A stretch of DNA of 64,000 nt, taken from IMG/VR virus record IMGVR_UViG_3300037461_001375. One strand, given 5' to 3'. The DNA is from an uncultured virus (IMG/VR IMGVR_UViG_3300037461_001375) (Duplodnaviria; Heunggongvirae; Uroviricota; Caudoviricetes). How positions within the stretch are numbered: the first letter of the stretch is position 1; the number at the start of each line of letters is the position of its first letter. The position numbers were made by a program, and so were the translations under genes. The notes under the pieces are model-generated. The model did no database searches. It worked only from the letters and a program-made list of their open reading frames with translations, and was not told the DNA's origin. Of the stretch, positions 13,504-31,064 are shown one piece after another.

Positions 13504-15087
13504 CTAGCGAACAGGCATGGGTTCCAGCCCGAATATTTTAGAAGCCTCGTTGTAGTCCATCAGATTCCCCATATCTGGGCCAACTTGTAAATCTATTCGA
13601 TATGGTACGTCTGCTGTCAATCTCCAATCAAATGGAATTGCCGTACATCTGCGAGCAATAACTTTCATTACCGGCTCCAAAAATCCCGGAGCACAATCAC
13701 CCCACCCTGAGTCGTGAACTGTATTTGTATGCCAAGCCAAAAAAGGTTTACCATTAGGTCCGGGGCCTTCGTGAAATCTCCAGTTAGCTGCCTCTGGGAA
13801 CAAAACGCCGGAACGACCACCCCACATGGGAGCCGCAGACAGAGGCACGTATTCTCCGTGATACATCAAAGCAAGCATCCACAAATTATCAGTAGCCGAC
13901 ATGCTTTGAGTAGGAGTATTGGCGCAAGTATGGAAAGCGTGATCCAAAGCGCGACGGTCCTCGAAAGCGACATTCCAGATAGCTCGCCCACCACGAAATC
14001 CGATAAATCGGGCAGATTCTGGATAGTCAATCCATCGTCTACGGCCATAGCCATCTTCGCAGTAATGGTTTTTCCCGAGAAGTGCCTTGTCTAATTCCAT
14101 CAACTCGGACAACTCAGGATACCCCTCGAAAAATCTGCTGTGTCTCAATTCGGCTTCTTCATCGTCAATTCGAATACGAGCCCTATTCCACAAAGTTGAT
14201 TTTAGAGTGTAGGAGCTTCCACCATAAAGCAATGCAAAATTTGTCTGCTTGCCGACAGCATCTCGCTCGTAATCGCCCTTAGTAAATGTTCCCTCTGGGA
14301 CGCCATACAAAACAGCAGCAGTGCGAGCGTGAATATCTTTGCCGTTTCTTATGTAGTCCCACAAAGTATTGTTGCTTGTTTTGCACAAAAGCTTAGTAAG
14401 CATGGCAGCCCGAACAGCCATCTCGGCGCCCGATATATCCCACCGAAATACAGACCCATGAATTTTTGGATTCCAAGTCTCTTTGTCAGCAGGCTTGATT
14501 CGGGGGACTATGCAGGACTTCAAGGCCTTTGCAACTTCCTTGTCTGACTTTTCGGGAATTTGGTGAACAGGAGGATCGCTAGCACTAATGCGCGAAGTTC
14601 TAACGACAGCCCAGTTGAATTGGGGATGAATACAGCCGTCGGATTTGATTGCAGCATAAAAGGGAATAATGTTTGTGCTTATTGCTCTGGTCAGTGACTT
14701 GAGTTTCAAAATATCACGAACCTCTTGCAAATCATCGTCCCGGGGATTGACCAAGCAAGCGTACTCCCGAAGAACCTCAGAGCCTACGGAAGGCTGGGAA
14801 GTTTTCTCGGTAAGAACAGTGCATTCCAGATTCAAACCTTTTTTTCCGTACAAGTATTTTCGCAAAGCAGTATCGCTTGGTCGGTCTGCAATACTGAACG
14901 TCATGTCGATACCAAATCTCGAAGCCGATTCGGCAATCTGTGTTTTCAAAGCTTCAACTTCTTTTTTGAAAGCCTTGAATGTCTGAGCCAACCTATTTTT
15001 TGACATTGGAATTCCAGCACGCCGAATTGCCGACACGGCAGAATTAGCCGGAACCAGAATATTTTTGTAGTAGTCCCCGATTCTCAT
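13504..15087 (-). CDS. DNA polymerase family A, polymerase subunit
   Basis: TSRISASDPPVHQIP, motif A WDISGAEM, motif B KQTNFALLYG, motif C VHDS. Confidence 0.9.
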   Translation of the reverse strand: MRIGDYYKNILVPANSAVSAIRRAGIPMSKNRLAQTFKAFKKEVEALKTQIAESASRFGIDMTFSIADRPSDTALRKYLYGKKGLNLECTVLTEKTSQPSVGSEVLREYACLVNPRDDDLQEVRDILKLKSLTRAISTNIIPFYAAIKSDGCIHPQFNWAVVRTSRISASDPPVHQIPEKSDKEVAKALKSCIVPRIKPADKETWNPKIHGSVFRWDISGAEMAVRAAMLTKLLCKTSNNTLWDYIRNGKDIHARTAAVLYGVPEGTFTKGDYERDAVGKQTNFALLYGGSSYTLKSTLWNRARIRIDDEEAELRHSRFFEGYPELSELMELDKALLGKNHYCEDGYGRRRWIDYPESARFIGFRGGRAIWNVAFEDRRALDHAFHTCANTPTQSMSATDNLWMLALMYHGEYVPLSAAPMWGGRSGVLFPEAANWRFHEGPGPNGKPFLAWHTNTVHDSGWGDCAPGFLEPVMKVIARRCTAIPFDWRLTADVPYRIDLQVGPDMGNLMDYNEASKIFGLEPMPVR

Positions 15088-16277
15088 GGGCAGTACTCTC
15101 CCTTCTTCAGTTTCGCTTCCAATATTTTCACAAGCTTGAATGTGCTCACTGCGTCACGAACCGCACCCTCTGCAACGACAGAAGTTGGGTGTTCGGCCAT
15201 GCGACTCTTGTCAACGTCCCAGTAGGAAGATTCGTTTAGAATTTCCATCACGGCACGCTCTAGCGTATTGGAAGCCCGTCGCCCGTCACCGAGAGAAATC
15301 AGAGCCAGAAGTCCGTCTCCGGATCTGTTGTTTATTCCATCAACCCAACCCTGATAGATCAAACCTTCTTCGTCAAAATTTCCATGGAAAGCCCACTTTG
15401 GTTGAGACGACATGAAAAGTTTGTTTAGTATTCTTTTGCACTCTTCCTTGTTGTCCTCGTCGGCTTTGAAGTCGATCCAAAACCCAGAGTTTTTGTTATA
15501 GGCCACTGCAAGACCACGTACTCGAAAGTCCTTGTGAAAAGGATTTGTTGAGACAGCTTTTCTGGAAGGAGTCTCGTAGCAATCGTAAGTTTCAATATCA
15601 AAAGCAAACGTACTTCCAGACTGAACCAACAGGTCTATAACATTTTCGGCATCAGCTACTCGTTCAAATATTCCTATGGTTATGTCGGGTAAATTGTCAG
15701 ATCCTTGAACTCGTTTGCAAAAAGTGAAGATGTCTTTTTCGAATTGACGTCGCCACTCTTCAGCACCTGAACGTAGAATAGCAGCAGGATGCAGCGTCGG
15801 AAAAACTCTGCGATTTTCTGGATGGGGAGTTAGCCACCACACGCCTCTAATTTTTGTTATCTGAAGTTTTGTATCTTGAAGGATAACTTTGGCAGTGTCT
15901 GATCCCATAGCCAGAATTGGCAGAGACGGAAATTTGTTCAAGTCGGCATACATGTACTCGGAGCATCTTCGCTGAGCTTTTTTCCACGAAGAGTCAAACT
16001 TGTCTTCTATTGGTCGACATCTGGTTAAGTTTGCGTAGGCTACATCCCTCTCTGGATTTACACCTGCACGTTTTAGAGTCGACCGTAGAAGGTCCCCGGC
16101 TTTTCCTGTGAATCCGATTCCGGTGATTTCCTCAGTAGCTCCGGGAGCCAAACCTAAAGCAAAAAACTTTGGATTATTCGGAATGCAGGGTAAAACTTTT
16201 ATGTTGCTGTTCAGAGGGCATTCAGAACAAGGGCTACTTGTTATCTTCGGAGCTACTTCCGGCTTCTTTTTCGGCAT
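15084..16277 (-). CDS. uracil-DNA glycosylase-like domain fused to a 3'-5' exonuclease (N-terminal subunit of a split DNA polymerase)
   Basis: CSECPL, GLAPG, NLTRCRP, HPAAILR (UDG family 4/5); FDIETY, NFD, RDA (Exo I-III). Confidence 0.85.
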   Translation of the reverse strand: MPKKKPEVAPKITSSPCSECPLNSNIKVLPCIPNNPKFFALGLAPGATEEITGIGFTGKAGDLLRSTLKRAGVNPERDVAYANLTRCRPIEDKFDSSWKKAQRRCSEYMYADLNKFPSLPILAMGSDTAKVILQDTKLQITKIRGVWWLTPHPENRRVFPTLHPAAILRSGAEEWRRQFEKDIFTFCKRVQGSDNLPDITIGIFERVADAENVIDLLVQSGSTFAFDIETYDCYETPSRKAVSTNPFHKDFRVRGLAVAYNKNSGFWIDFKADEDNKEECKRILNKLFMSSQPKWAFHGNFDEEGLIYQGWVDGINNRSGDGLLALISLGDGRRASNTLERAVMEILNESSYWDVDKSRMAEHPTSVVAEGAVRDAVSTFKLVKILEAKLKKGEYCP

Positions 16278-17613: not shown

Positions 17614-17660
17614 AAAAAGGAAATAGGCGTCCGACAATTTTTAGTTGTCGGACGCCTATT
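17614..17660 (-). terminator. intrinsic terminator
   Basis: 16-bp perfect stem aataggcgtccgacaa/ttgtcggacgcctatt followed by TCCTTTTT on the minus strand. Confidence 0.85.
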
Positions 17661-17668
17661 GCTATTGC

Positions 17669-18607
17669 CTACGCAGCTCTCTGCTTCTTGAACTTCCGAA
17701 TTTCCTTTTCCTTGAGCAGAGAATCCAGAACGGAACTGATTTCCTCGAAGCCGGAAGCCACGGCTTGCCTTACATCAACAACCGTTTGCTTCACATCGTC
17801 GGAGTCTTTCGAGGAATATCGAATATCCTCAGGATCGAAACTTCCGAGCAAAGCCTTGGTTGCTTCGACAACAGATTCCAAGTCAGCATCGTTTGTGATG
17901 TCGCGAGTCGCGAACGTTGACAAAAATTCTTGAATTTTCTCGATCGTCGTAGTTTTGAATCGCTTGGGAACTCCGTCCTTCTCCCCGCGCAATGTCTCGC
18001 TGAAGTGATCCAGCATTTTCTTCAGGCTAATTCGCAACGTTTCACGCAGAGTGAACCAGAGATCTTCCCAGTCCTTCTTCATTGCAATACTTTGTTCACG
18101 CCAGATTTTTTCGTCGATGTCCTTCAGTTCCGGGCAAACGTCGATTGAGACAAATCGCCACTTGGCGCCAAAGGAATCTGGCAGAGCTTCAGGAGCAGGA
18201 TAGTCTGCCGGTTCAAACATTTTCCCGAGTCTTTTCTTGGCCTCCAAAACCAAGCGAGGATACTCTTCGATAAAAGCGTTGATCAAAACTTTCCGACCTT
18301 CAGAACGCTCGGTCAAATAGTCGTGAATTTTTTCAACCTGCGAAGGGTACAGAGTGTAGAAACCTCGCATACCCTCAAGGAAAGGCATACTCACTCGCTT
18401 TACATAGGTATACGTCTGGCTGTCGTAGGACTCGATTTTCTTCAACTCGGGAGAATCGATAATCTCTTTGCTCAGTCGCAGCATCGAGATGTCAACGTCC
18501 TCGAAATTACCCTCTTCAATGTCTGCCTTTCTGCTGGTTGTCGGCTTCCGAAAGTGCATAAACAGTGTGACAACATTTCCCTTCAACTCGTAACTCGTCT
18601 TGTCCAT
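17669..18607 (-). CDS. DUF3150-like protein
   Basis: LSKEIID, F...YP......K.RLG..F...DYP pattern, helical; AAGGAGG RBS. Confidence 0.55.
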   Translation of the reverse strand: MDKTSYELKGNVVTLFMHFRKPTTSRKADIEEGNFEDVDISMLRLSKEIIDSPELKKIESYDSQTYTYVKRVSMPFLEGMRGFYTLYPSQVEKIHDYLTERSEGRKVLINAFIEEYPRLVLEAKKRLGKMFEPADYPAPEALPDSFGAKWRFVSIDVCPELKDIDEKIWREQSIAMKKDWEDLWFTLRETLRISLKKMLDHFSETLRGEKDGVPKRFKTTTIEKIQEFLSTFATRDITNDADLESVVEATKALLGSFDPEDIRYSSKDSDDVKQTVVDVRQAVASGFEEISSVLDSLLKEKEIRKFKKQRAA

Positions 18608-18628: not shown

Positions 18629-18841
18629 TCAATGACTGTGATCGTGAGAGTGCGACAATCCGGTGTGAACGTGTCCCGACTTTTGCGAGCGCTTCTGTTT
18701 TGTTACTGAGCCTCCAAGTTCCTTTGCCAACATTTCAAGAAACAAATCAGCAGCTTTGTGGTTTGCCATTGAAATTTTACTGGTAGTTGTTTTGATTGTC
18801 CCGTCTTCGAGAATTTCGATTTGAAGTTCGTCAGCTTTCAT
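18629..18841 (-). CDS. DUF2997-like small protein with His-rich tail
   Basis: IEILEDGTI...LAKELGG pattern; downstream of a Ycf46-like ATPase. Confidence 0.55.
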   Translation of the reverse strand: MKADELQIEILEDGTIKTTTSKISMANHKAADLFLEMLAKELGGSVTKQKRSQKSGHVHTGLSHSHDHSH

Positions 18842-19397
18842 TGGCGCCCCCTTTTAGCTTGAATTTTCGTAAAGTGGATTGTGACAAAGACGAATCTGCA
18901 TTTGAATTGAGTAAACTCGACGTAGCGTGCAAATCAGCAATCGTTTTAACTTTTTTCTCCCTAATTTTTGAGGACCAGAATACGGCAATTAACGTAGAAC
19001 AGGTACAAGGTGCGTTGTTTCCATGAGTGCTGCAATAAACACGCACCGACCCAAGGTTGTCAAAAGGAGCAAGATAGAGGCACTTTTTCGTCCAGAAAAA
19101 GTATTCCAGCATGTCAATCGTATTGAGCGTGCTAAATGTTACTTCTACATGACCAGATCCAAACTGCTTTGAGCTTGCAGCGTAAGGCAATCTAGCAGTA
19201 ATTGTTTCTATAGGCAAAACTTCGATTGCGCTTTCATCGAAAAGCATTTCAGACTCGTAAGCTAACTCTGGCTCTGGCACATCGTTTATTGCTGCATTGT
19301 ACCTAGAAATTCTTGCCCTAGAAATTCTGGCAGACTTAGCAGACCTTTCGGTGAGAACCATTTTCACCAAAGCCGAGCGCTTCAAACCTTTCTTCAT
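18831..19397 (-). CDS. hypothetical protein
   Basis: abuts both neighbours; YCSTH...CTCS possible metal site. Confidence 0.55.
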   Translation of the reverse strand: MKKGLKRSALVKMVLTERSAKSARISRARISRYNAAINDVPEPELAYESEMLFDESAIEVLPIETITARLPYAASSKQFGSGHVEVTFSTLNTIDMLEYFFWTKKCLYLAPFDNLGSVRVYCSTHGNNAPCTCSTLIAVFWSSKIREKKVKTIADLHATSSLLNSNADSSLSQSTLRKFKLKGGANES

Positions 19398-19730
19398 CTA
19401 AATTTTCCTTAAAACAAATTTGTTCGCCGAAGTTTGCGTCACATTCCACTTGAACTTTTTTGCTGCATCTTTGACAGTGAGTTCGCTATACTTTCTTCGA
19501 ATTTCAGAAACAAGAGACTTGTTGTCGCGAGATGCGTATTGCGACGTCTGCAACACGAGGCCTTCTTGTTTGTTGTAGTACCCTGAAATGTAACTCTGTG
19601 AGTGGCGCATAGAAAATCCGGTTGGAGTTTTCTTTGTCTGAAACCCAAGAATTTGAAGCGCTGATTCAAGCCGATCAGTATTTGCAACAAACAAATCAAG
19701 CGAAGTGGTAATTATTTGATCGCAAGGCAT
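19398..19730 (-). CDS. DUF1257/Ycf35-like protein
   Basis: LESALQILGF...RRKYSELTVKDAAKKFKW pattern; directly after the AAA ATPase. Confidence 0.55.
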   Translation of the reverse strand: MPCDQIITTSLDLFVANTDRLESALQILGFQTKKTPTGFSMRHSQSYISGYYNKQEGLVLQTSQYASRDNKSLVSEIRRKYSELTVKDAAKKFKWNVTQTSANKFVLRKI

Positions 19731-19741
19731 TTTGCACCCCC

Positions 19742-21286
19742 TTATTTTGAAGAACGTTTTCTCATGCGACGCACGGCTTCCTCGTACTCAGGCATTACTG
19801 ACTTGTCCTTTTGATACGGTCCGGCATACGAAGCAGACAAATATCTTCCGTCGGCAGTATTTCTAAGTTTTTCTACTGACTGTGGATCCGAAATCATGAT
19901 GGGAACAATGTATCGGGAAACTTCAGTCAGTCGTTTTCCAAGTCTGTAAGCCAGAAAGCAACAGTTTCGAATCTCAGCTCCAGTCCAATTCGAGTACTCG
20001 GGAAGATCCTGCGCCTTTAGCCCATACTTGGACATGCAAATTTTCCAGATAGACGCTTGCTCTTGTGGGTTTGGAATATCGAAATACCAAATGCCGTCGA
20101 GAAACCGTCGTCGCAATTCTGGGGGCATGGCTTCCAACTTGTTGCAGGTCGCAAAAAAGTAAGCTTTGTTTCCACCAACAGCCAAAACCGTTTTCATCAT
20201 GGCTCGCATCTGAGCTTCAGACTGCCCAACAAGTGAGCCCTTAACTGCGCCAAGATCCATCTTGATTACTGGCACGTTAAATGTTTTCCCAACAGCCTGA
20301 GCGAACTGACTTTTTCCTGTTCCGGGAGGTCCAACGAGGATTTTCCCACAAATTTGATTGTCTTCCATTGTGCTGAGCATCACGCCGAGTTGATCCTGAC
20401 TAACGCCCGATGTGTCAGAACCAGAACCAAACGCACCAGCAAAAAGCTTTTCGATTTCGTCAATGAAGACAATACAGTTTGGCGATTGAGCGCTAGAAAA
20501 CAACGCTGCGTCGAAAGCTTTTATTTCCTCAGAACCACCGACGTCTTTGAAAGTAAACTGAGGCTCCCAGAATGTAAGTCCACGAGTTTTTTCGATGCTG
20601 GACTTTTTGCGCTTCCAAACAGAAGGCAAATTTACTCGATCGTTCTCGATGCTCATTGCAACCACTTGCTCAGCAGGAAAAGCAGGAAGACCTCGAAGGG
20701 CAGAAGCGATCTTCAAAGCGTCATCTTCTTCGATGTCGCCAATGCCAGCCGCCTCACACACCTTCGCTGCAATGTCCATCAACCTAGAATCGTCAGGCAG
20801 TTCCTCGGAAAACACGATAATGTCCTGTGCCAATTCCGGAGGGAACATGAAAGACGGCCCAAGCAATACAAGGGTTGAGCCATTGCTCTTGAACAGGTCT
20901 CGAAGGTTCCAAATGCCCTGAGAAACAGCCTCGCTCCCCTGTTGGGTAGGCTCTAAGTACCGGTGAGCGTTCAAGAAGAAAATCAGAGAATCGCCCGGAA
21001 ACTTCACCATCAAGTTAAGGGACTCAGCAGGATTGGATGTCATTGCCTGCAAGTTCTCTAAGTCGCCTCCAAATACTTGACGCAGAGCAGAAACAGCCAA
21101 TTCGTTTACGGCTTTCAGCCCAGAGATCAAGTCCCATCTAAAGACAGGAATGTTTGGTTCGACCTCGAATACAGCCTTTGTTACCTCGCGAATTGTCTCA
21201 CTTGGATCGAAAGTTTCTATGCCAACTAAAGGGGTTGATACTGATCTTGCATCTACTACCAAACGAGAAACTGGTTTTGCCTCCAT
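19742..21286 (-). CDS. Ycf46-like AAA+ ATPase with internally permuted ATPase domain
   Basis: inactive N-terminal AAA-like domain, FKDVGG, IVFIDEIEKLF, GPPGTGKS, VGQSE, FATCN, PPELRRRF; AAGGAGG RBS. Confidence 0.85.
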   Translation of the reverse strand: MEAKPVSRLVVDARSVSTPLVGIETFDPSETIREVTKAVFEVEPNIPVFRWDLISGLKAVNELAVSALRQVFGGDLENLQAMTSNPAESLNLMVKFPGDSLIFFLNAHRYLEPTQQGSEAVSQGIWNLRDLFKSNGSTLVLLGPSFMFPPELAQDIIVFSEELPDDSRLMDIAAKVCEAAGIGDIEEDDALKIASALRGLPAFPAEQVVAMSIENDRVNLPSVWKRKKSSIEKTRGLTFWEPQFTFKDVGGSEEIKAFDAALFSSAQSPNCIVFIDEIEKLFAGAFGSGSDTSGVSQDQLGVMLSTMEDNQICGKILVGPPGTGKSQFAQAVGKTFNVPVIKMDLGAVKGSLVGQSEAQMRAMMKTVLAVGGNKAYFFATCNKLEAMPPELRRRFLDGIWYFDIPNPQEQASIWKICMSKYGLKAQDLPEYSNWTGAEIRNCCFLAYRLGKRLTEVSRYIVPIMISDPQSVEKLRNTADGRYLSASYAGPYQKDKSVMPEYEEAVRRMRKRSSK

Positions 21287-21348
21287 GAAAAGCCTCCTTC
21301 CTGCCGGGGCCGACCGGCGAACACCCGGGAGATCCGAGTGATGGGGGG

Positions 21349-21377
21349 ATTATATGTAAAACGCAAACGCTTGTCAA
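21349..21377 (-). promoter_or_regulatory. consensus sigma70 promoter TTGACA-17-TATAAT
   Basis: -35 at 21372-21377, -10 at 21349-21354, intergenic, upstream of the AAA gene. Confidence 0.9.
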
Positions 21378-21453
21378 GCCCGGCTAAGTGTGCGAAATCG
21401 CTACGTTTTGTGAACCGGCCGGTCGAGACGGAGATGTGAACACGCAAACTGCT

Positions 21454-29753: not shown

Positions 29754-31064
29754 CTAAGATGGGTATCCTTCACCTAATCTGAAGTTGGCTGCCCGTCGTT
29801 TGGCAATCCAAGAATCCAGATAGTGAATCTTGGGTAACTTGATTTTCGGCAGTAAAGACTCAATCCAACCCCTGTGCTCTATTCCACCGTAGATCAACAC
29901 ATTCTGGGGTTCAAGCGCTTTCATCGCAGCCGTGAATCCAGTGATCCAACGCTTTCTTCCGAACTCTTTGTCGGTCTTTGTCTTCCCAAGAGACCTGCAT
30001 TGGCAGATTACGACAGGAGCGTTCTTTGGAATTCCTTCGAAAGCAAAATCGAAGGACCTCTTGTCTGCCCATGAGACATTTGGAAGAACTTTGATTCCTG
30101 CGTCTTGCCAGTACCTTGCACACCAACGCGCACGGTACACATTCCAAATCTGCACGGCAAGAGGATCGTCAGCCCACACAGAAAAATCGGGAGTTACGAC
30201 GCCACCCCATTTTGTTCTGTAAAGCTTTTCAACTGTAGCCGGAATGTTGTTCCAAATAGAATCAAAGCTTTCGTCTTCTAAGTAGAAACAAAGAACGCCA
30301 CCTTCGACGTTTTCCCGGGTAAATTTTGCTTTCCCGTGAATGAACAGCCACTTAGACGGGTCCTTGACCTGCTCGTAGGACTCACCACCATGAACTTCTG
30401 TAGGAATAACGGTCGAGAGCAACTCAGTCTTCAAATCGGGAATGCCCCATTTGTTTGACGAAGCAAAGATTGCGTCCGGCCGAAAAAAGATTGCTGGAGC
30501 TTCAGAGATTTCAGTGGAGTCCTCTAGGTCATCTACCATCGTGTTGTCTTCGGATTCATAGTAGGCGTCTGAATCTCTGTCTATAATCTTTTGAACTTCG
30601 TCCATCAGGTGAGCGTTTTCCTCCATCATGCGCTCAAAAAGTTTGTTGACGGAGGGATCGTCAATTTTCATGTCGGCAATCAAAACAGCCAAAGCCTTTT
30701 CATCGACTTCAGCAGCTTCAGCGAGCGGATCTAGCGTTGCCAGAATCGTGTTTTCCTCTTCTTCCGTCCAACTACCTATCAGAACGGGCACTTCGTCTAC
30801 GTCTAGGTTTCGACGTGCGTGACCGTCGATCAATCGCCCGGTTCGCTCGTTGTATAGCAGCGCGCCCGCCCAGCCTACGCCACGCTTGATCAGGCCTCCG
30901 AGAGCATCAACCTGAACCTTTGGATGTCGGCGCCAGTTCTTTGGATTTGGTGAAAGAGTTTTAGGATCAACCCATTCCAGACGTAAATTTCTACGTGGAG
31001 TGCCGGGGGTTTCGGTTTTCGCAGCAGAAGTTTTAGTTGTTCGTGATCTAGCCATCTCACTCAC
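29754..31064 (-). CDS. ParB/Srx-like N-terminal domain fused to a DUF4417-like domain
   Basis: LSPNPKNWRRHP...LIDGHAR; FYLED..F..IW, TPDFS, QIWNVYRARW, YWQ..GI.V.PNVSW, FAFEGIP. Confidence 0.78.
   Translation of the reverse strand: MSEMARSRTTKTSAAKTETPGTPRRNLRLEWVDPKTLSPNPKNWRRHPKVQVDALGGLIKRGVGWAGALLYNERTGRLIDGHARRNLDVDEVPVLIGSWTEEEENTILATLDPLAEAAEVDEKALAVLIADMKIDDPSVNKLFERMMEENAHLMDEVQKIIDRDSDAYYESEDNTMVDDLEDSTEISEAPAIFFRPDAIFASSNKWGIPDLKTELLSTVIPTEVHGGESYEQVKDPSKWLFIHGKAKFTRENVEGGVLCFYLEDESFDSIWNNIPATVEKLYRTKWGGVVTPDFSVWADDPLAVQIWNVYRARWCARYWQDAGIKVLPNVSWADKRSFDFAFEGIPKNAPVVICQCRSLGKTKTDKEFGRKRWITGFTAAMKALEPQNVLIYGGIEHRGWIESLLPKIKLPKIHYLDSWIAKRRAANFRLGEGYPS

What the first reader, a model, noticed from the sequence alone, without database searches (positions are those of the whole stretch)
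19742..21286. AAA+ ATPase with Walker B encoded before Walker A (internal segment swap)
Seen: the order is FKDVGG, then PNCIVFIDEIEKLFAG...SGVSQDQLGVMLSTMED (Walker B, 20456-20473), then GKILVGPPGTGKS (Walker A, 20309-20332) with the pore loop KGSLVGQSE, then sensor 1 FFATCN and PPELRRRF. Established: classical AAA and Ycf46 domains run Walker A, pore loop, Walker B, sensor 1, SRH. All motifs are intact in one frame, so two adjacent blocks have swapped places inside the domain; this is not a simple circular permutation. Inference: a topologically rewired but probably active P-loop ATPase.
Basis: partly seen in the sequence, partly recalled or inferred. Interest (0 to 1): 0.85.

Follow-up and report, generated by a model that had tools for sequence, protein, structure and literature searches.

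The report
Phage AAA ATPase with swapped core blocks
A phage gene encodes an ATP-driven AAA motor protein in which the piece carrying the catalytic Walker B residues is encoded before, instead of after, the ATP-binding Walker A piece, a natural rewiring that a very large phage and prophage family keeps with every catalytic residue intact.

Summary
Window 19742-21286 (- strand) encodes a 514-aa protein with the order FKDVGG, Walker B (IVFIDE, 20456-20473), Walker A (GPPGTGKS, 20309-20332), pore loop, sensor 1, PPELRRRF.

It is not a misassembly. Per-run contigs of four runs span the gene without a difference. All 266 homologues tested keep the order, as do 79 of 80 bacterial-genome loci.

Normal-order relatives show that one 40-47-residue unit (strand 3, pore loop 2, helix 3) moved from behind helix 2 to in front of strand 1. 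Examples are Rhizobium phage L338C gp050 and Mycobacterium phage Corndog gp96.

A tree supports a single origin. K325, E277, N382 and R394 are invariant in 335 of 335 sequences. The AlphaFold2 model is confident (pLDDT 94), and covariation places the moved block beside its usual neighbours.

The protein has a degenerate D1-like tier plus the permuted active tier. It heads a promoter-to-terminator operon with DUF1257-, DUF2997- and DUF3150-like genes. Biological role is unknown.

I found no paper describing the swap. This scan has met the same family on other DNA at least eight times.

The parts
19742..21286 (-). CDS of the 514-aa permuted AAA ATPase (P0001)
   Evidence: ORF. Pfam AAA 65.6 bits against a cut-off of 21.2, matched in 2 stretches. 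AlphaFold2 model pLDDT 94.1, pTM 0.88.
20582..21286 (-). Residues 1-235: degenerate D1-like AAA tier with no P-loop lysine (PLVGIETFDP in place of Walker A, NAHRY in place of Walker B)
   Evidence: VIA-align matches the whole model 3-506 to p97 D1+D2 209-775, Z 19.0, rmsd 4.8, 407 aligned. Foldseek hits to p97, Rix7 and NVL span 560-620 columns. The sequence is read.
20351..20491 (-). Block B, residues 266-312: strand 3 with Walker B (D276, E277), pore loop 2 (Gly/Ser-rich, D291 G294 S296) and helix 3. This is the relocated unit.
   Evidence: Aligns to L338C gp050 353-392 and Corndog gp96 375-411. The block-B HMM hits normal-order proteins behind block A. Strand E271-275 and helix H295-309 in the model.
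20168..20350 (-). Block A, residues 313-373: strand 1, Walker A GPPGTGKS, helix 1, strand 2, pore loop 1 KGSLVG, helix 2
   Evidence: K325 is present in 335 of 335 sequences.
20072..20167 (-). Block C, residues 374-405: strand 4 with sensor 1 N382, PPELRRRF with the Arg finger candidate R394, and strand 5
   Evidence: N382 and R394 are present in 335 of 335 sequences.
19847..20071 (-). Residues 406-480: helical lid subdomain
   Evidence: Helices H407-420, 436-449, 453-459 and 463-478. Aligned to the p97 D2 and Vps4 lids.
21349..21377 (-). Promoter-like site TTGACA-17-TATAAT, 12 of 12 matches, 63 nt upstream of the ATG
   Evidence: This is a consensus match only. The total of 2 sites in the region is not above the shuffles (mean 3.7).
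19398..19730 (-). 110-aa DUF1257 (Ycf35)-like protein
   Evidence: An iterated HMM finds the family in 77 of 83 loci. 25 of 57 members hit Pfam DUF1257, best E 5.6e-12. The window's own copy does not reach Pfam. The Atlas structure search gives TM 0.73 and 0.69 to DUF1257 clusters.
18831..19397 (-). 188-aa ORF with no relatives in the related loci; an insertion into the module in this phage
   Evidence: 0 loci hit. No Pfam or PHROG match.
18629..18841 (-). 70-aa DUF2997-like protein
   Evidence: An iterated HMM finds the family in 75 of 83 loci. 34 of 63 members hit Pfam DUF2997, best E 1.1e-17. The window's own copy does not reach Pfam.
17669..18607 (-). 312-aa DUF3150-like protein
   Evidence: The HMM finds it in 76 of 80 IMG/VR loci and in Tunturi_3. 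It is on the same strand as the ATPase in 61 of 61 BLAST-linked loci. 25 of 65 members hit Pfam DUF3150. Atlas features 0.97, structure TM 0.75. Model pLDDT 90.1.
17622..17660 (-). Terminator-like hairpin (16-pair stem, 8 G-C pairs) followed by a T run, 9 nt after the DUF3150-like stop codon
   Evidence: This is a pattern match only.

Best explanation
The gene encodes a two-tier, Ycf46-like classical AAA ATPase of a tailed phage. The N-terminal tier (1-235) is a degenerate, nucleotide-blind AAA-like domain. The C-terminal tier is a catalytic AAA domain whose chain order is alpha0, [strand 3-Walker B, pore loop 2, helix 3], [strand 1-Walker A, helix 1, strand 2, pore loop 1, helix 2], [strand 4-sensor 1, helix 4-Arg, strand 5], lid. 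One strand-helix unit of about 45 residues was moved once, in the ancestor of this clade, from behind helix 2 to in front of strand 1. All strands of the 5-1-4-3-2 sheet are parallel, and each strand-helix unit starts and ends on the same edge. The three new connections therefore shift by only one or two strand positions and stay right-handed, so the usual fold and active site can form (inference from the established AAA+ topology). The protein most likely forms a ring that hydrolyses ATP and remodels or unfolds a protein substrate through its pore loops. It probably works with the co-transcribed DUF1257-, DUF2997- and DUF3150-like proteins, as adaptors or substrates, during the DNA-metabolism phase of infection. 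Shown: the order, its conservation, the single origin, residue conservation and the module linkage. Inferred: the retained fold, activity, ring assembly and role.
For: Order and transposed alignments.

Family-wide order: 266 of 266 homologues are B-A-C, against 120 of 120 of the L338C family that are A-B(-C), scored with the same block HMMs. Of 146 viral and phage loci with both block hits, 91 are B-A-C and 55 A-B-C. 79 of 80 bacterial-genome loci are B-A-C; the remaining one had no call.

Family size: 1134 clusters at 50% identity with E<=1e-30, and the best 150 are all single full-length stretches.

Assembly: contigs of 4 runs span 19600-21400 with 0 differences and 0 gaps. They may come from the source samples. 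An identical protein is in a second record.

Single origin: on a tree built without block B (83 rows), the B-A-C rows are one side of a branch with SH-aLRT 100 and need 1 change; the shuffled mean is 27.

Catalytic residues, n=335: K325 335, E277 335, N382 335, R394 335, G322 335, D276 318 D plus 17 E.

Fold: pLDDT 94.1, with five strands at 271-275, 313-318, 340-343, 375-381 and 399-401. p97 D2 (3cf0_A) gives Z 16.1, rmsd 2.5, with 202 residues aligned within model 235-482; about 46 are unaligned, the size of block B.

Covariation (Meff 266): among the top 45 couplings are F274-A329, C271-G371, I278-A379, I275-F377, E279-P321, T306-L368, T306-M364, D298-E357 and L300-P388. So strand 3 sits beside strand 4 and the P-loop, and helix 3 sits between helices 2 and 4.

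Module: 74 of 80 swapped IMG/VR loci carry all four families. A promoter-like and a terminator-like site bracket the five genes.

Context: of 139 flanking proteins scanned, 27 had a PHROG hit, and 15 of the 19 with a named category are DNA, RNA and nucleotide metabolism. The window gene lies between the primase and the split polymerase.

Inteins sit in three family members. By recalled knowledge, inteins are typical of conserved sites in needed proteins.
Against: No coordinates of the model were available to me. The position of strand 3 in the sheet therefore rests on secondary structure, covariation at modest depth (Meff 266 for 171 columns, with no structure to score precision against) and topology reasoning. 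It was not measured.

AlphaFold2 and the covariation analysis use overlapping alignments, so they are not independent.

Pore loop 1 has Leu at the aromatic position in 258 of 335 sequences; Phe or Tyr occur in 30. This differs from the classical unfoldases that I recall.

No expression, ATPase or oligomer data exist here.

The contigs laid are assemblies, not raw reads, and may come from the source samples.

The small-protein HMMs were iterated on the same loci, and the window's own DUF1257-, DUF2997- and DUF3150-like copies do not reach Pfam on their own.

Most flanking genes are unannotated: 112 of 139 had no PHROG hit.
Confidence: 0.8

Rival explanations
1. Assembly or annotation artefact: the swapped order results from a chimeric contig or a local rearrangement in one assembly.
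For: The window comes from a metagenome. The four runs that hold it may be its own source samples, and only contigs, not raw reads, could be laid.
Against: Four per-run assemblies agree with 0 differences. Hundreds of diverged homologues (33-53% identity) from independent sources keep the same order: 266 of 266 proteins, 79 of 80 genome loci including the complete Nitrospira moscoviensis chromosome, and the isolated Tunturiibacter phage Tunturi_3.
Confidence: 0.01
2. The fold is kept but the enzyme is dead: a pseudo-ATPase scaffold, in which the swap crippled hydrolysis and the family persists as a nucleotide-binding or structural partner of the DUF proteins.
For: No activity data exist. The protein already carries one degenerate tier. 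The pore-loop aromatic is mostly Leu.
Against: The Walker B glutamate, sensor 1 Asn and the Arg-finger candidate are each invariant in 335 of 335 sequences, at about 40-50% overall identity. This would not be expected without selection for hydrolysis. Normal-order relatives have the same motifs.
Confidence: 0.1
3. The upstream block does not fill the strand-3 slot of its own domain. It packs elsewhere, for example onto the D1-like tier or into a neighbouring subunit as a domain swap, giving a truly different architecture.
For: I could not inspect coordinates. Sequence-order aligners leave about 46 residues of the D2 range unaligned. The block follows directly on the inter-tier linker.
Against: Covariation links block B to helix 1, the P-loop, strand 4, helix 2 and helix 4 of the same tier. 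pLDDT is 95-97 for strand 3 and helix 3, with a DSSP strand call at 271-275, and dips to 83 only in the loop at 281-290. Covariation cannot by itself tell intra-subunit from inter-subunit contacts.
Confidence: 0.07

Closest known systems
Normal-order Ycf46-like two-tier AAA ATPases of phages (JGI name 'SpoVK/Ycf46/Vps4 family AAA+-type ATPase'), e.g. Rhizobium phage vB_RleS_L338C gp050 (AHC30467.1) and Mycobacterium phage Corndog gp96 (NP_817947.1)
   Same: Same length class, the same degenerate N-terminal tier and the same motifs, including the GDSGVSQ pore loop 2 and the MQD/E helix 3 (24% and 23% identity). L338C has DUF1257- and DUF2997-like genes downstream. 9 of 55 normal-order IMG/VR loci carry the full DUF1257/DUF2997/DUF3150 module.
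   Different: Their order is Walker A, pore loop 1, Walker B, sensor 1: 120 of 120 proteins. They keep the F..G...PKG linker before strand 1, which block B replaces in the swapped clade. L338C and Corndog lack a DUF3150-like gene anywhere in their genomes.
Type II classical AAA unfoldases p97/VCP, Cdc48, Rix7, NVL (D1+D2), and Vps4/spastin (single tier)
   Same: Best structural matches: p97 D1D2 with Z 19.0 and 407 aligned; p97 D2 with Z 16.1 and rmsd 2.5; Vps4 with Z 16.9. They share Walker A and B, sensor 1, SRH-type arginine and pore loop 1 in the KxxVG.SE context.
   Different: In those proteins the chain order is collinear and D1 binds nucleotide; here D1 has no P-loop. Sequence identity is only 14-22%.
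Circularly permuted GTPases (YlqF/YjeQ type) and the repositioned lid of the MCM/MoxR/dynein AAA+ clade (both recalled, not tested here)
   Same: These are natural rearrangements of chain order in P-loop NTPases that keep the active site.
   Different: The first is a cyclic permutation of the whole G domain. The second moves the lid, not a core strand. Here, two internal neighbouring blocks of the core sheet are exchanged, which a cyclic permutation cannot give.
Cyanobacterial and plastid Ycf46, and the DUF2997-Ycf35(DUF1257)-fed7 gene cluster
   Same: The family names are shared: DUF1257 is called ycf35 and lies next to a DUF2997 gene in cyanobacteria (passage read in PMC4284462).
   Different: I did not compare a genuine Ycf46 sequence. 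No function is known for any of these proteins in the papers I saw.

Membership tests
Classical AAA ATPase domain (Pfam PF00004) | Profile score above the curated cut-off | tested here: met
   65.6 bits against 21.2, but matched in 2 stretches; best stretch 316-366 to profile 2-52
Classical AAA ATPase domain (Pfam PF00004) | Walker A GxxxxGK[ST] | tested here: met
   GPPGTGKS at 319-326. K325 in 335 of 335; S/T326 in 335 of 335
Classical AAA ATPase domain (Pfam PF00004) | Walker B hhhhDE | tested here: met
   IVFIDE at 272-277. E277 in 335 of 335; D276 is 318 D plus 17 E
Classical AAA ATPase domain (Pfam PF00004) | Collinear order: Walker A, pore loop 1, Walker B, sensor 1, SRH | tested here: not met
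   Walker B lies 42 residues before Walker A. Transposed alignment to VAT D2 and to normal-order relatives
Classical AAA ATPase domain (Pfam PF00004) | Sensor 1 polar residue on strand 4, and arginine finger(s) in the second region of homology | tested here: met
   N382 in 335 of 335; R394 in 335 of 335; R393 in 315 of 335. The roles are assigned by alignment, not by assay
Classical AAA ATPase domain (Pfam PF00004) | Pore loop 1 with aromatic-hydrophobic-Gly | tested here: inconclusive
   L352-V353-G354. The position is Leu in 258, Ile in 24, Phe in 17, Tyr in 13 of 335. Corndog gp96 has KYVGESE
Classical AAA ATPase domain (Pfam PF00004) | Five-stranded parallel sheet 5-1-4-3-2 with a helical lid | tested here: inconclusive
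   Five strands and a lid in the model. p97 D2 Z 16.1 with 202 aligned. Covariation fits the canonical neighbours. No coordinates were available to read the strand order
Classical AAA ATPase domain (Pfam PF00004) | ATP hydrolysis and ring assembly | not testable with these tools
   No biochemical data
Ycf46-like two-tier phage AAA ATPases with the DUF1257/DUF2997(/DUF3150) module | Degenerate N-terminal AAA-like tier shared with L338C gp050 and Corndog gp96 | tested here: met
   Collinear alignment of residues 51-260 with both. Model 3-235 aligned to p97 D1
Ycf46-like two-tier phage AAA ATPases with the DUF1257/DUF2997(/DUF3150) module | Neighbouring DUF1257-, DUF2997- and DUF3150-like genes on the same strand | tested here: met
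   Window genes at 19398-19730, 18629-18841 and 17669-18607. Family links. 74 of 80 swapped loci have all four. The window copies themselves are below Pfam thresholds
Ycf46-like two-tier phage AAA ATPases with the DUF1257/DUF2997(/DUF3150) module | Homology to genuine cyanobacterial or plastid Ycf46 | not tested
   No Ycf46 sequence was fetched. The link rests on JGI's names for the normal-order relatives

The most novel reading that the evidence does not exclude
This is a natural, ancient, single-event, non-cyclic permutation of the catalytic core of an AAA+ ATPase that is fully active. The Walker B strand, pore loop 2 and helix 3 are now wired directly to the inter-tier linker. The D1-like tier, or the DUF1257/DUF2997/DUF3150 partners bound to it, could therefore gate hydrolysis and pore-loop-2 movement through the chain itself. 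That would be a regulatory coupling impossible in the canonical order. It would also show that the AAA+ chain order, treated as invariant in the classifications I recall, is not required for the fold.
Probability: 0.3. Interest if true: 0.85.

Novelty: new variant of a known kind. Interest (0 to 1): 0.72.

Why it matters
AAA+ motors are among the best-studied enzymes, and in every classification I recall their motif order (Walker A before Walker B) is treated as fixed. Here, more than a thousand protein clusters exchange two core blocks yet keep every catalytic residue. This is a ready-made natural experiment on how far chain connectivity can change without losing a fold or an active site, and on how such a change arises, because living normal-order relatives in the same gene module exist for direct comparison.

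It also has a practical side. Collinear profile methods split or under-score these proteins: Pfam matches in two stretches, and structure aligners skip about 46 residues. The family is therefore annotated only as 'AAA family ATPase' or 'hypothetical'.

The four-gene module (AAA, DUF1257/Ycf35, DUF2997, DUF3150) is common in phages and prophages of soil and freshwater bacteria and has no known role. A copy in a cultured strain, Nitrospira moscoviensis NSP M-1, and one in an isolated phage, Tunturi_3, make it testable.

Tried and rejected
- **Binding of the ATPase to the DUF3150-like protein:** score 0.00 in both runs, with the verdict 'no answer'. This is no evidence either way.
- **Fold of the DUF3150-like protein:** Foldseek against PDB gave no match at E<=0.001. 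VIA-align wide gave only generic helical bundles for residues 165-311, best Z 9.9, below the level that means anything for helical proteins. The profile against PDB sequences gave only chance-level hits, best E 0.0068.
- **Intermediate forms with two Walker B blocks (B-A-B-C):** none among 386 proteins or in the loci. This does not exclude them elsewhere.
- **DUF3150 as a partner specific to the swapped clade:** suggested by its absence from the whole L338C and Corndog genomes. Rejected, because 9 of 55 normal-order loci have the full module and 7 more have a DUF3150-like gene.
- **A hidden canonical Walker B behind Walker A:** strand 4 follows helix 2 directly. The only conserved acidic residue there, D344 at the end of strand 2, is also present in the normal-order relatives.
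- **BLASTP dot-plot with default HSPs:** it did not report the transposed piece, which lies inside a gap. A block-wise Smith-Waterman alignment was used instead.
- **The window's own assembly:** it is not held. The nearest record, G001, was used.
- **Literature searches for the permutation or the module:** searches found no description. They cover open PMC and bioRxiv only.
- **tRNAs:** none in the window.
Full report
**1. The observation**

Window 19742-21286 on the minus strand is a single 514-codon ORF with a strong Shine-Dalgarno sequence (GGAAGGAGG) before its ATG.

Its translation reads, in order: FKDVGG (246-251), CIVFIDEIEK (271-280), a Gly/Ser-rich loop, VSQDQLGVMLSTMED (295-309), GKILVGPPGTGKS (314-326), KGSLVGQSE (349-357), FFATCN (377-382) and PPELRRRF (388-395).

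Pfam's AAA model matches well above its cut-off, but in two stretches. phmmer against solved structures aligns the protein to the D2 domain of the archaeal VCP-like ATPase in transposed pieces: query 314-368 to chain 322-376, query 266-319 to chain 376-428, and query 379-445 to chain 428-500. The motif order seen by eye is therefore a real rearrangement relative to a canonical AAA domain.

**2. Not an artefact**

- The per-run contigs of four sequencing runs each span 19600-21400 in one piece, with no difference, gap, joint or loose end. These are assemblies, and the runs may be the window's own source, so on its own this is weak.
- A second viral record holds the identical protein.
- The decisive evidence is comparative. 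The best 120 hits among 5.8 billion proteins are 41-53% identical over 90-99% of the length.
- An exhaustive profile search of 1.84 billion cluster representatives finds 1134 at E<=1e-30, and the best 150 all match in essentially one full-length stretch.
- I built HMMs of the three blocks: B = 266-312, A = 313-373, C = 374-405. All 266 of these proteins read B-A-C.
- The same holds for 79 of 80 loci from bacterial genome assemblies. These are mostly Acidobacteriota, Nitrospirota and Armatimonadota MAGs, and include two copies in the complete Nitrospira moscoviensis NSP M-1 chromosome.
- It also holds for the isolated Tunturiibacter phage Tunturi_3 gp103, at 37% identity.

**3. What moved**

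Two annotated phage proteins are distant relatives with the normal order: Rhizobium phage L338C gp050 (24% identity) and Mycobacterium phage Corndog gp96 (23%).

In a joint alignment they share the whole N-terminal half, the Walker A block and the sensor-1/arginine block with the window protein. Their stretch 'CVVMLDEVDKAF..GGDSGVSQRILGLILTHMQE' sits between helix 2 and strand 4, exactly where the window protein has nothing ('VLAVGG-NKAYFFATCN'). The window protein carries the homologous stretch between alpha0 and strand 1, where the normal-order proteins have the short 'F..G...PK' linker.

Block-wise local alignment confirms this. Block B maps to gp050 353-392 and gp96 375-411 (z about 16; 0 of 200 shuffles as high). 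Block A maps in front of it (298-354; 315-372) and block C behind it (398-445; 415-470).

The same block HMMs read A-B(-C) in 120 of 120 members of the L338C family; the weaker C model falls below threshold in 57 of them.

The moved unit is strand 3 with Walker B, pore loop 2 and helix 3. Exchanging two internal neighbours cannot be produced by a cyclic permutation.

**4. One event**

I removed block B from every protein so that the remaining columns are collinear. I dropped proteins over 700 aa (intein carriers), proteins lacking a block-B hit and exact duplicates, and sampled 35 of the swapped loci at random. The result was a maximum-likelihood tree of 83 rows: 36 swapped including the window, and 47 normal-order.

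The swapped rows form one side of a branch with SH-aLRT 100 and need a single change of state; the shuffled mean is 27, and 0 of 500 shuffles were as low. They sit in an unresolved comb among several normal-order groups.

Polarity follows from the fact that every other AAA domain is normal-order. The root itself was only a midpoint. No protein with two B blocks was seen.

**5. Is the fold kept and the enzyme alive?**

*Residue conservation.* In 335 aligned family members, K325, E277, N382, R394 and G322 are invariant. D276 is D in 318 and E in 17. R393 is R in 315.

*Model.* AlphaFold2 with a 120-row alignment gives mean pLDDT 94.1 and pTM 0.88. The catalytic tier has five strands (271-275, 313-318, 340-343, 375-381, 399-401), and only the pore-loop-2 region dips, to 83.

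*Structural matches.* Foldseek and VIA-align put the whole chain on the D1+D2 pair of p97/Cdc48, Rix7 and NVL (Z 19.0, 407 aligned). They put residues 235-482 on p97 D2 (3cf0_A: Z 16.1, rmsd 2.5 Å, 202 aligned) and on Vps4 (Z 16.9). About 46 residues of that range stay unaligned, which is the size of block B and what a sequence-order aligner must do.

*Covariation.* I had no access to coordinates, so I asked the alignment itself. Mean-field covariation was run on 171 columns (335 sequences, effective number 266). Its 45 strongest pairs include:
- F274-A329 (strand 3 with helix 1)
- C271-G371 and N270-G372 (start of strand 3 with the end of helix 2, which are chain neighbours in the normal order)
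- I278-A379 and I275-F377 (strand 3 with strand 4)
- E279-P321 (Walker B with the P-loop)
- T306-L368, T306-M364 and D298-E357 (helix 3 with helix 2)
- L300-P388 (helix 3 with helix 4)

These are the neighbours that block B has in a canonical AAA domain. The depth is modest, and I could not score precision against a structure.

*Topology (inference from the established 5-1-4-3-2 parallel sheet).* Every strand-helix unit begins and ends at the same edge. The three new links are alpha0 to strand 3, helix 3 to strand 1, and helix 2 to strand 4. Each moves by only one or two strand positions in the same direction as the old ones, so all crossovers stay right-handed.

**6. Architecture and context**

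Residues 1-235 align to the D1 tier of p97 but have no P-loop lysine or Walker B acids. The protein is thus a two-tier ATPase with a nucleotide-blind first tier, as are its normal-order relatives.

The window is a tailed-phage genome with nearly all genes on one strand. It encodes tape measure, tail and head proteins, SbcCD, UvsX, SSB, a split family-A polymerase, primase, DnaB, a DnaC-like loader and helicases. The ATPase lies between the primase and the polymerase.

Downstream on the same strand, almost without gaps, are four genes:
- a 110-aa protein
- a 188-aa ORF unique to this phage
- a 70-aa protein
- a 312-aa protein

The 312-aa family is found in 76 of 80 related IMG/VR loci. Three of the four misses have under 1.5 kb of downstream sequence. 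It is on the same strand in 61 of 61 BLAST-linked loci. 25 of 65 members reach Pfam DUF3150, and the protein atlas agrees.

Iterated HMMs find the 110-aa and 70-aa families in 77 and 75 of 83 loci. 25 of 57 and 34 of 63 members reach Pfam DUF1257 and DUF2997. The window's own copies do not reach Pfam alone, but the 110-aa model resembles DUF1257 clusters with TM 0.69-0.73.

All four families are present in 74 of 80 swapped viral loci, most often in the window's order (38 loci), and in 58 of 80 genome loci.

The module predates the swap. 9 of 55 normal-order loci have all four families and 20 have DUF1257 plus DUF2997, although L338C and Corndog lack DUF3150 genome-wide.

A perfect TTGACA-17-TATAAT lies 63 nt before the ATPase start, and a 16-pair hairpin with a T run lies 9 nt after the DUF3150-like stop. 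These are pattern matches only, but they bracket the five genes.

Of 139 genes flanking the module in related loci, 112 have no PHROG. Of the 19 with a named category, 15 are DNA, RNA and nucleotide metabolism.

**7. Mechanism, with odds**

- Most likely (about 0.8): an active ring-forming AAA ATPase with the canonical fold reached through a different chain path.
- Moderately likely (about 0.5): it threads or remodels a protein through its pore loops. Pore loop 1 is mostly Leu-Val-Gly rather than aromatic.
- Probable, but unshown: the three DUF proteins are its adaptors, regulators or substrates. The one complex prediction gave no verdict.
- Its role in infection is unknown. The neighbourhood points to the DNA-metabolism period.

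**8. Known or new**

Full-text searches for permuted AAA or P-loop cores, for Walker B preceding Walker A, for Ycf46 in phages, and for DUF3150, DUF1257 and DUF2997 found no description of this rearrangement or of the module's function. I saw listings and abstracts, plus passages of PMC10853773, PMC4284462 and bioRxiv 10.1101/2025.10.13.678797. Subscription journals are not covered.

Non-cyclic permutations as a class are known (abstracts of PMC2096629 and PMC10085705). Circularly permuted GTPases and the repositioned lid of some AAA+ clades are recalled, not tested.

This scan has already reported the same family on at least eight other genomes. I reached the same reading independently. What I add here: the covariation test of block placement, the operon boundaries, the count of normal-order loci with the full module, and the prophage copies in a cultured Nitrospira.

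I file it as a new variant of a known kind.

Noticed in passing
window 13504-15087 and 15084-16277 (- strand): The family-A DNA polymerase is split into two ORFs that overlap by 4 nt. The upstream ORF matches phrog_17 positions 491-787 and the downstream ORF matches positions 846-1239. This could be a genuinely split polymerase or a frameshift.
   Followed up: no
proteins P0143 (861 aa), P0189 (896 aa), P0250 (846 aa), relatives: Three members of the swapped family carry inteins (Hint, intein splicing and LAGLIDADG domains) inserted within the catalytic tier. P0342 and P0351 of the normal-order family also list Hint or intein Pfam domains.
   Followed up: partly
window 18831-19397 (- strand): A 188-aa ORF sits between the DUF1257-like and DUF2997-like genes. 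It has no relative in any of the related loci and no Pfam or PHROG match. It looks like a recent insertion into the module.
   Followed up: partly
L174 and L180 (NZ_CP011801.1, Nitrospira moscoviensis NSP M-1, about 1.45 Mb and 2.95 Mb): A cultured nitrite oxidiser carries two copies of the swapped ATPase, each 44% identical to the window protein, presumably in two prophages.
   Followed up: no
L061 and L073 (IMG/VR contigs of 388 kb and 364 kb): The swapped ATPase and its module also occur on jumbo-phage-sized contigs.
   Followed up: no
window 29754-31064 (- strand): A 436-aa protein combines a ParB-like or methyltransferase-like N-terminus (phrog_620, phrog_498) with a nuclease family (phrog_940).
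   Followed up: no
L001 9600-10628 (Tunturiibacter phage Tunturi_3 gp96): The DUF3150-like partner in this isolated phage is annotated 'HNH endonuclease' in GenBank. My profile matches it at E 1.2e-89. Nothing in my searches supports a nuclease, so the annotation is probably wrong.
   Followed up: partly
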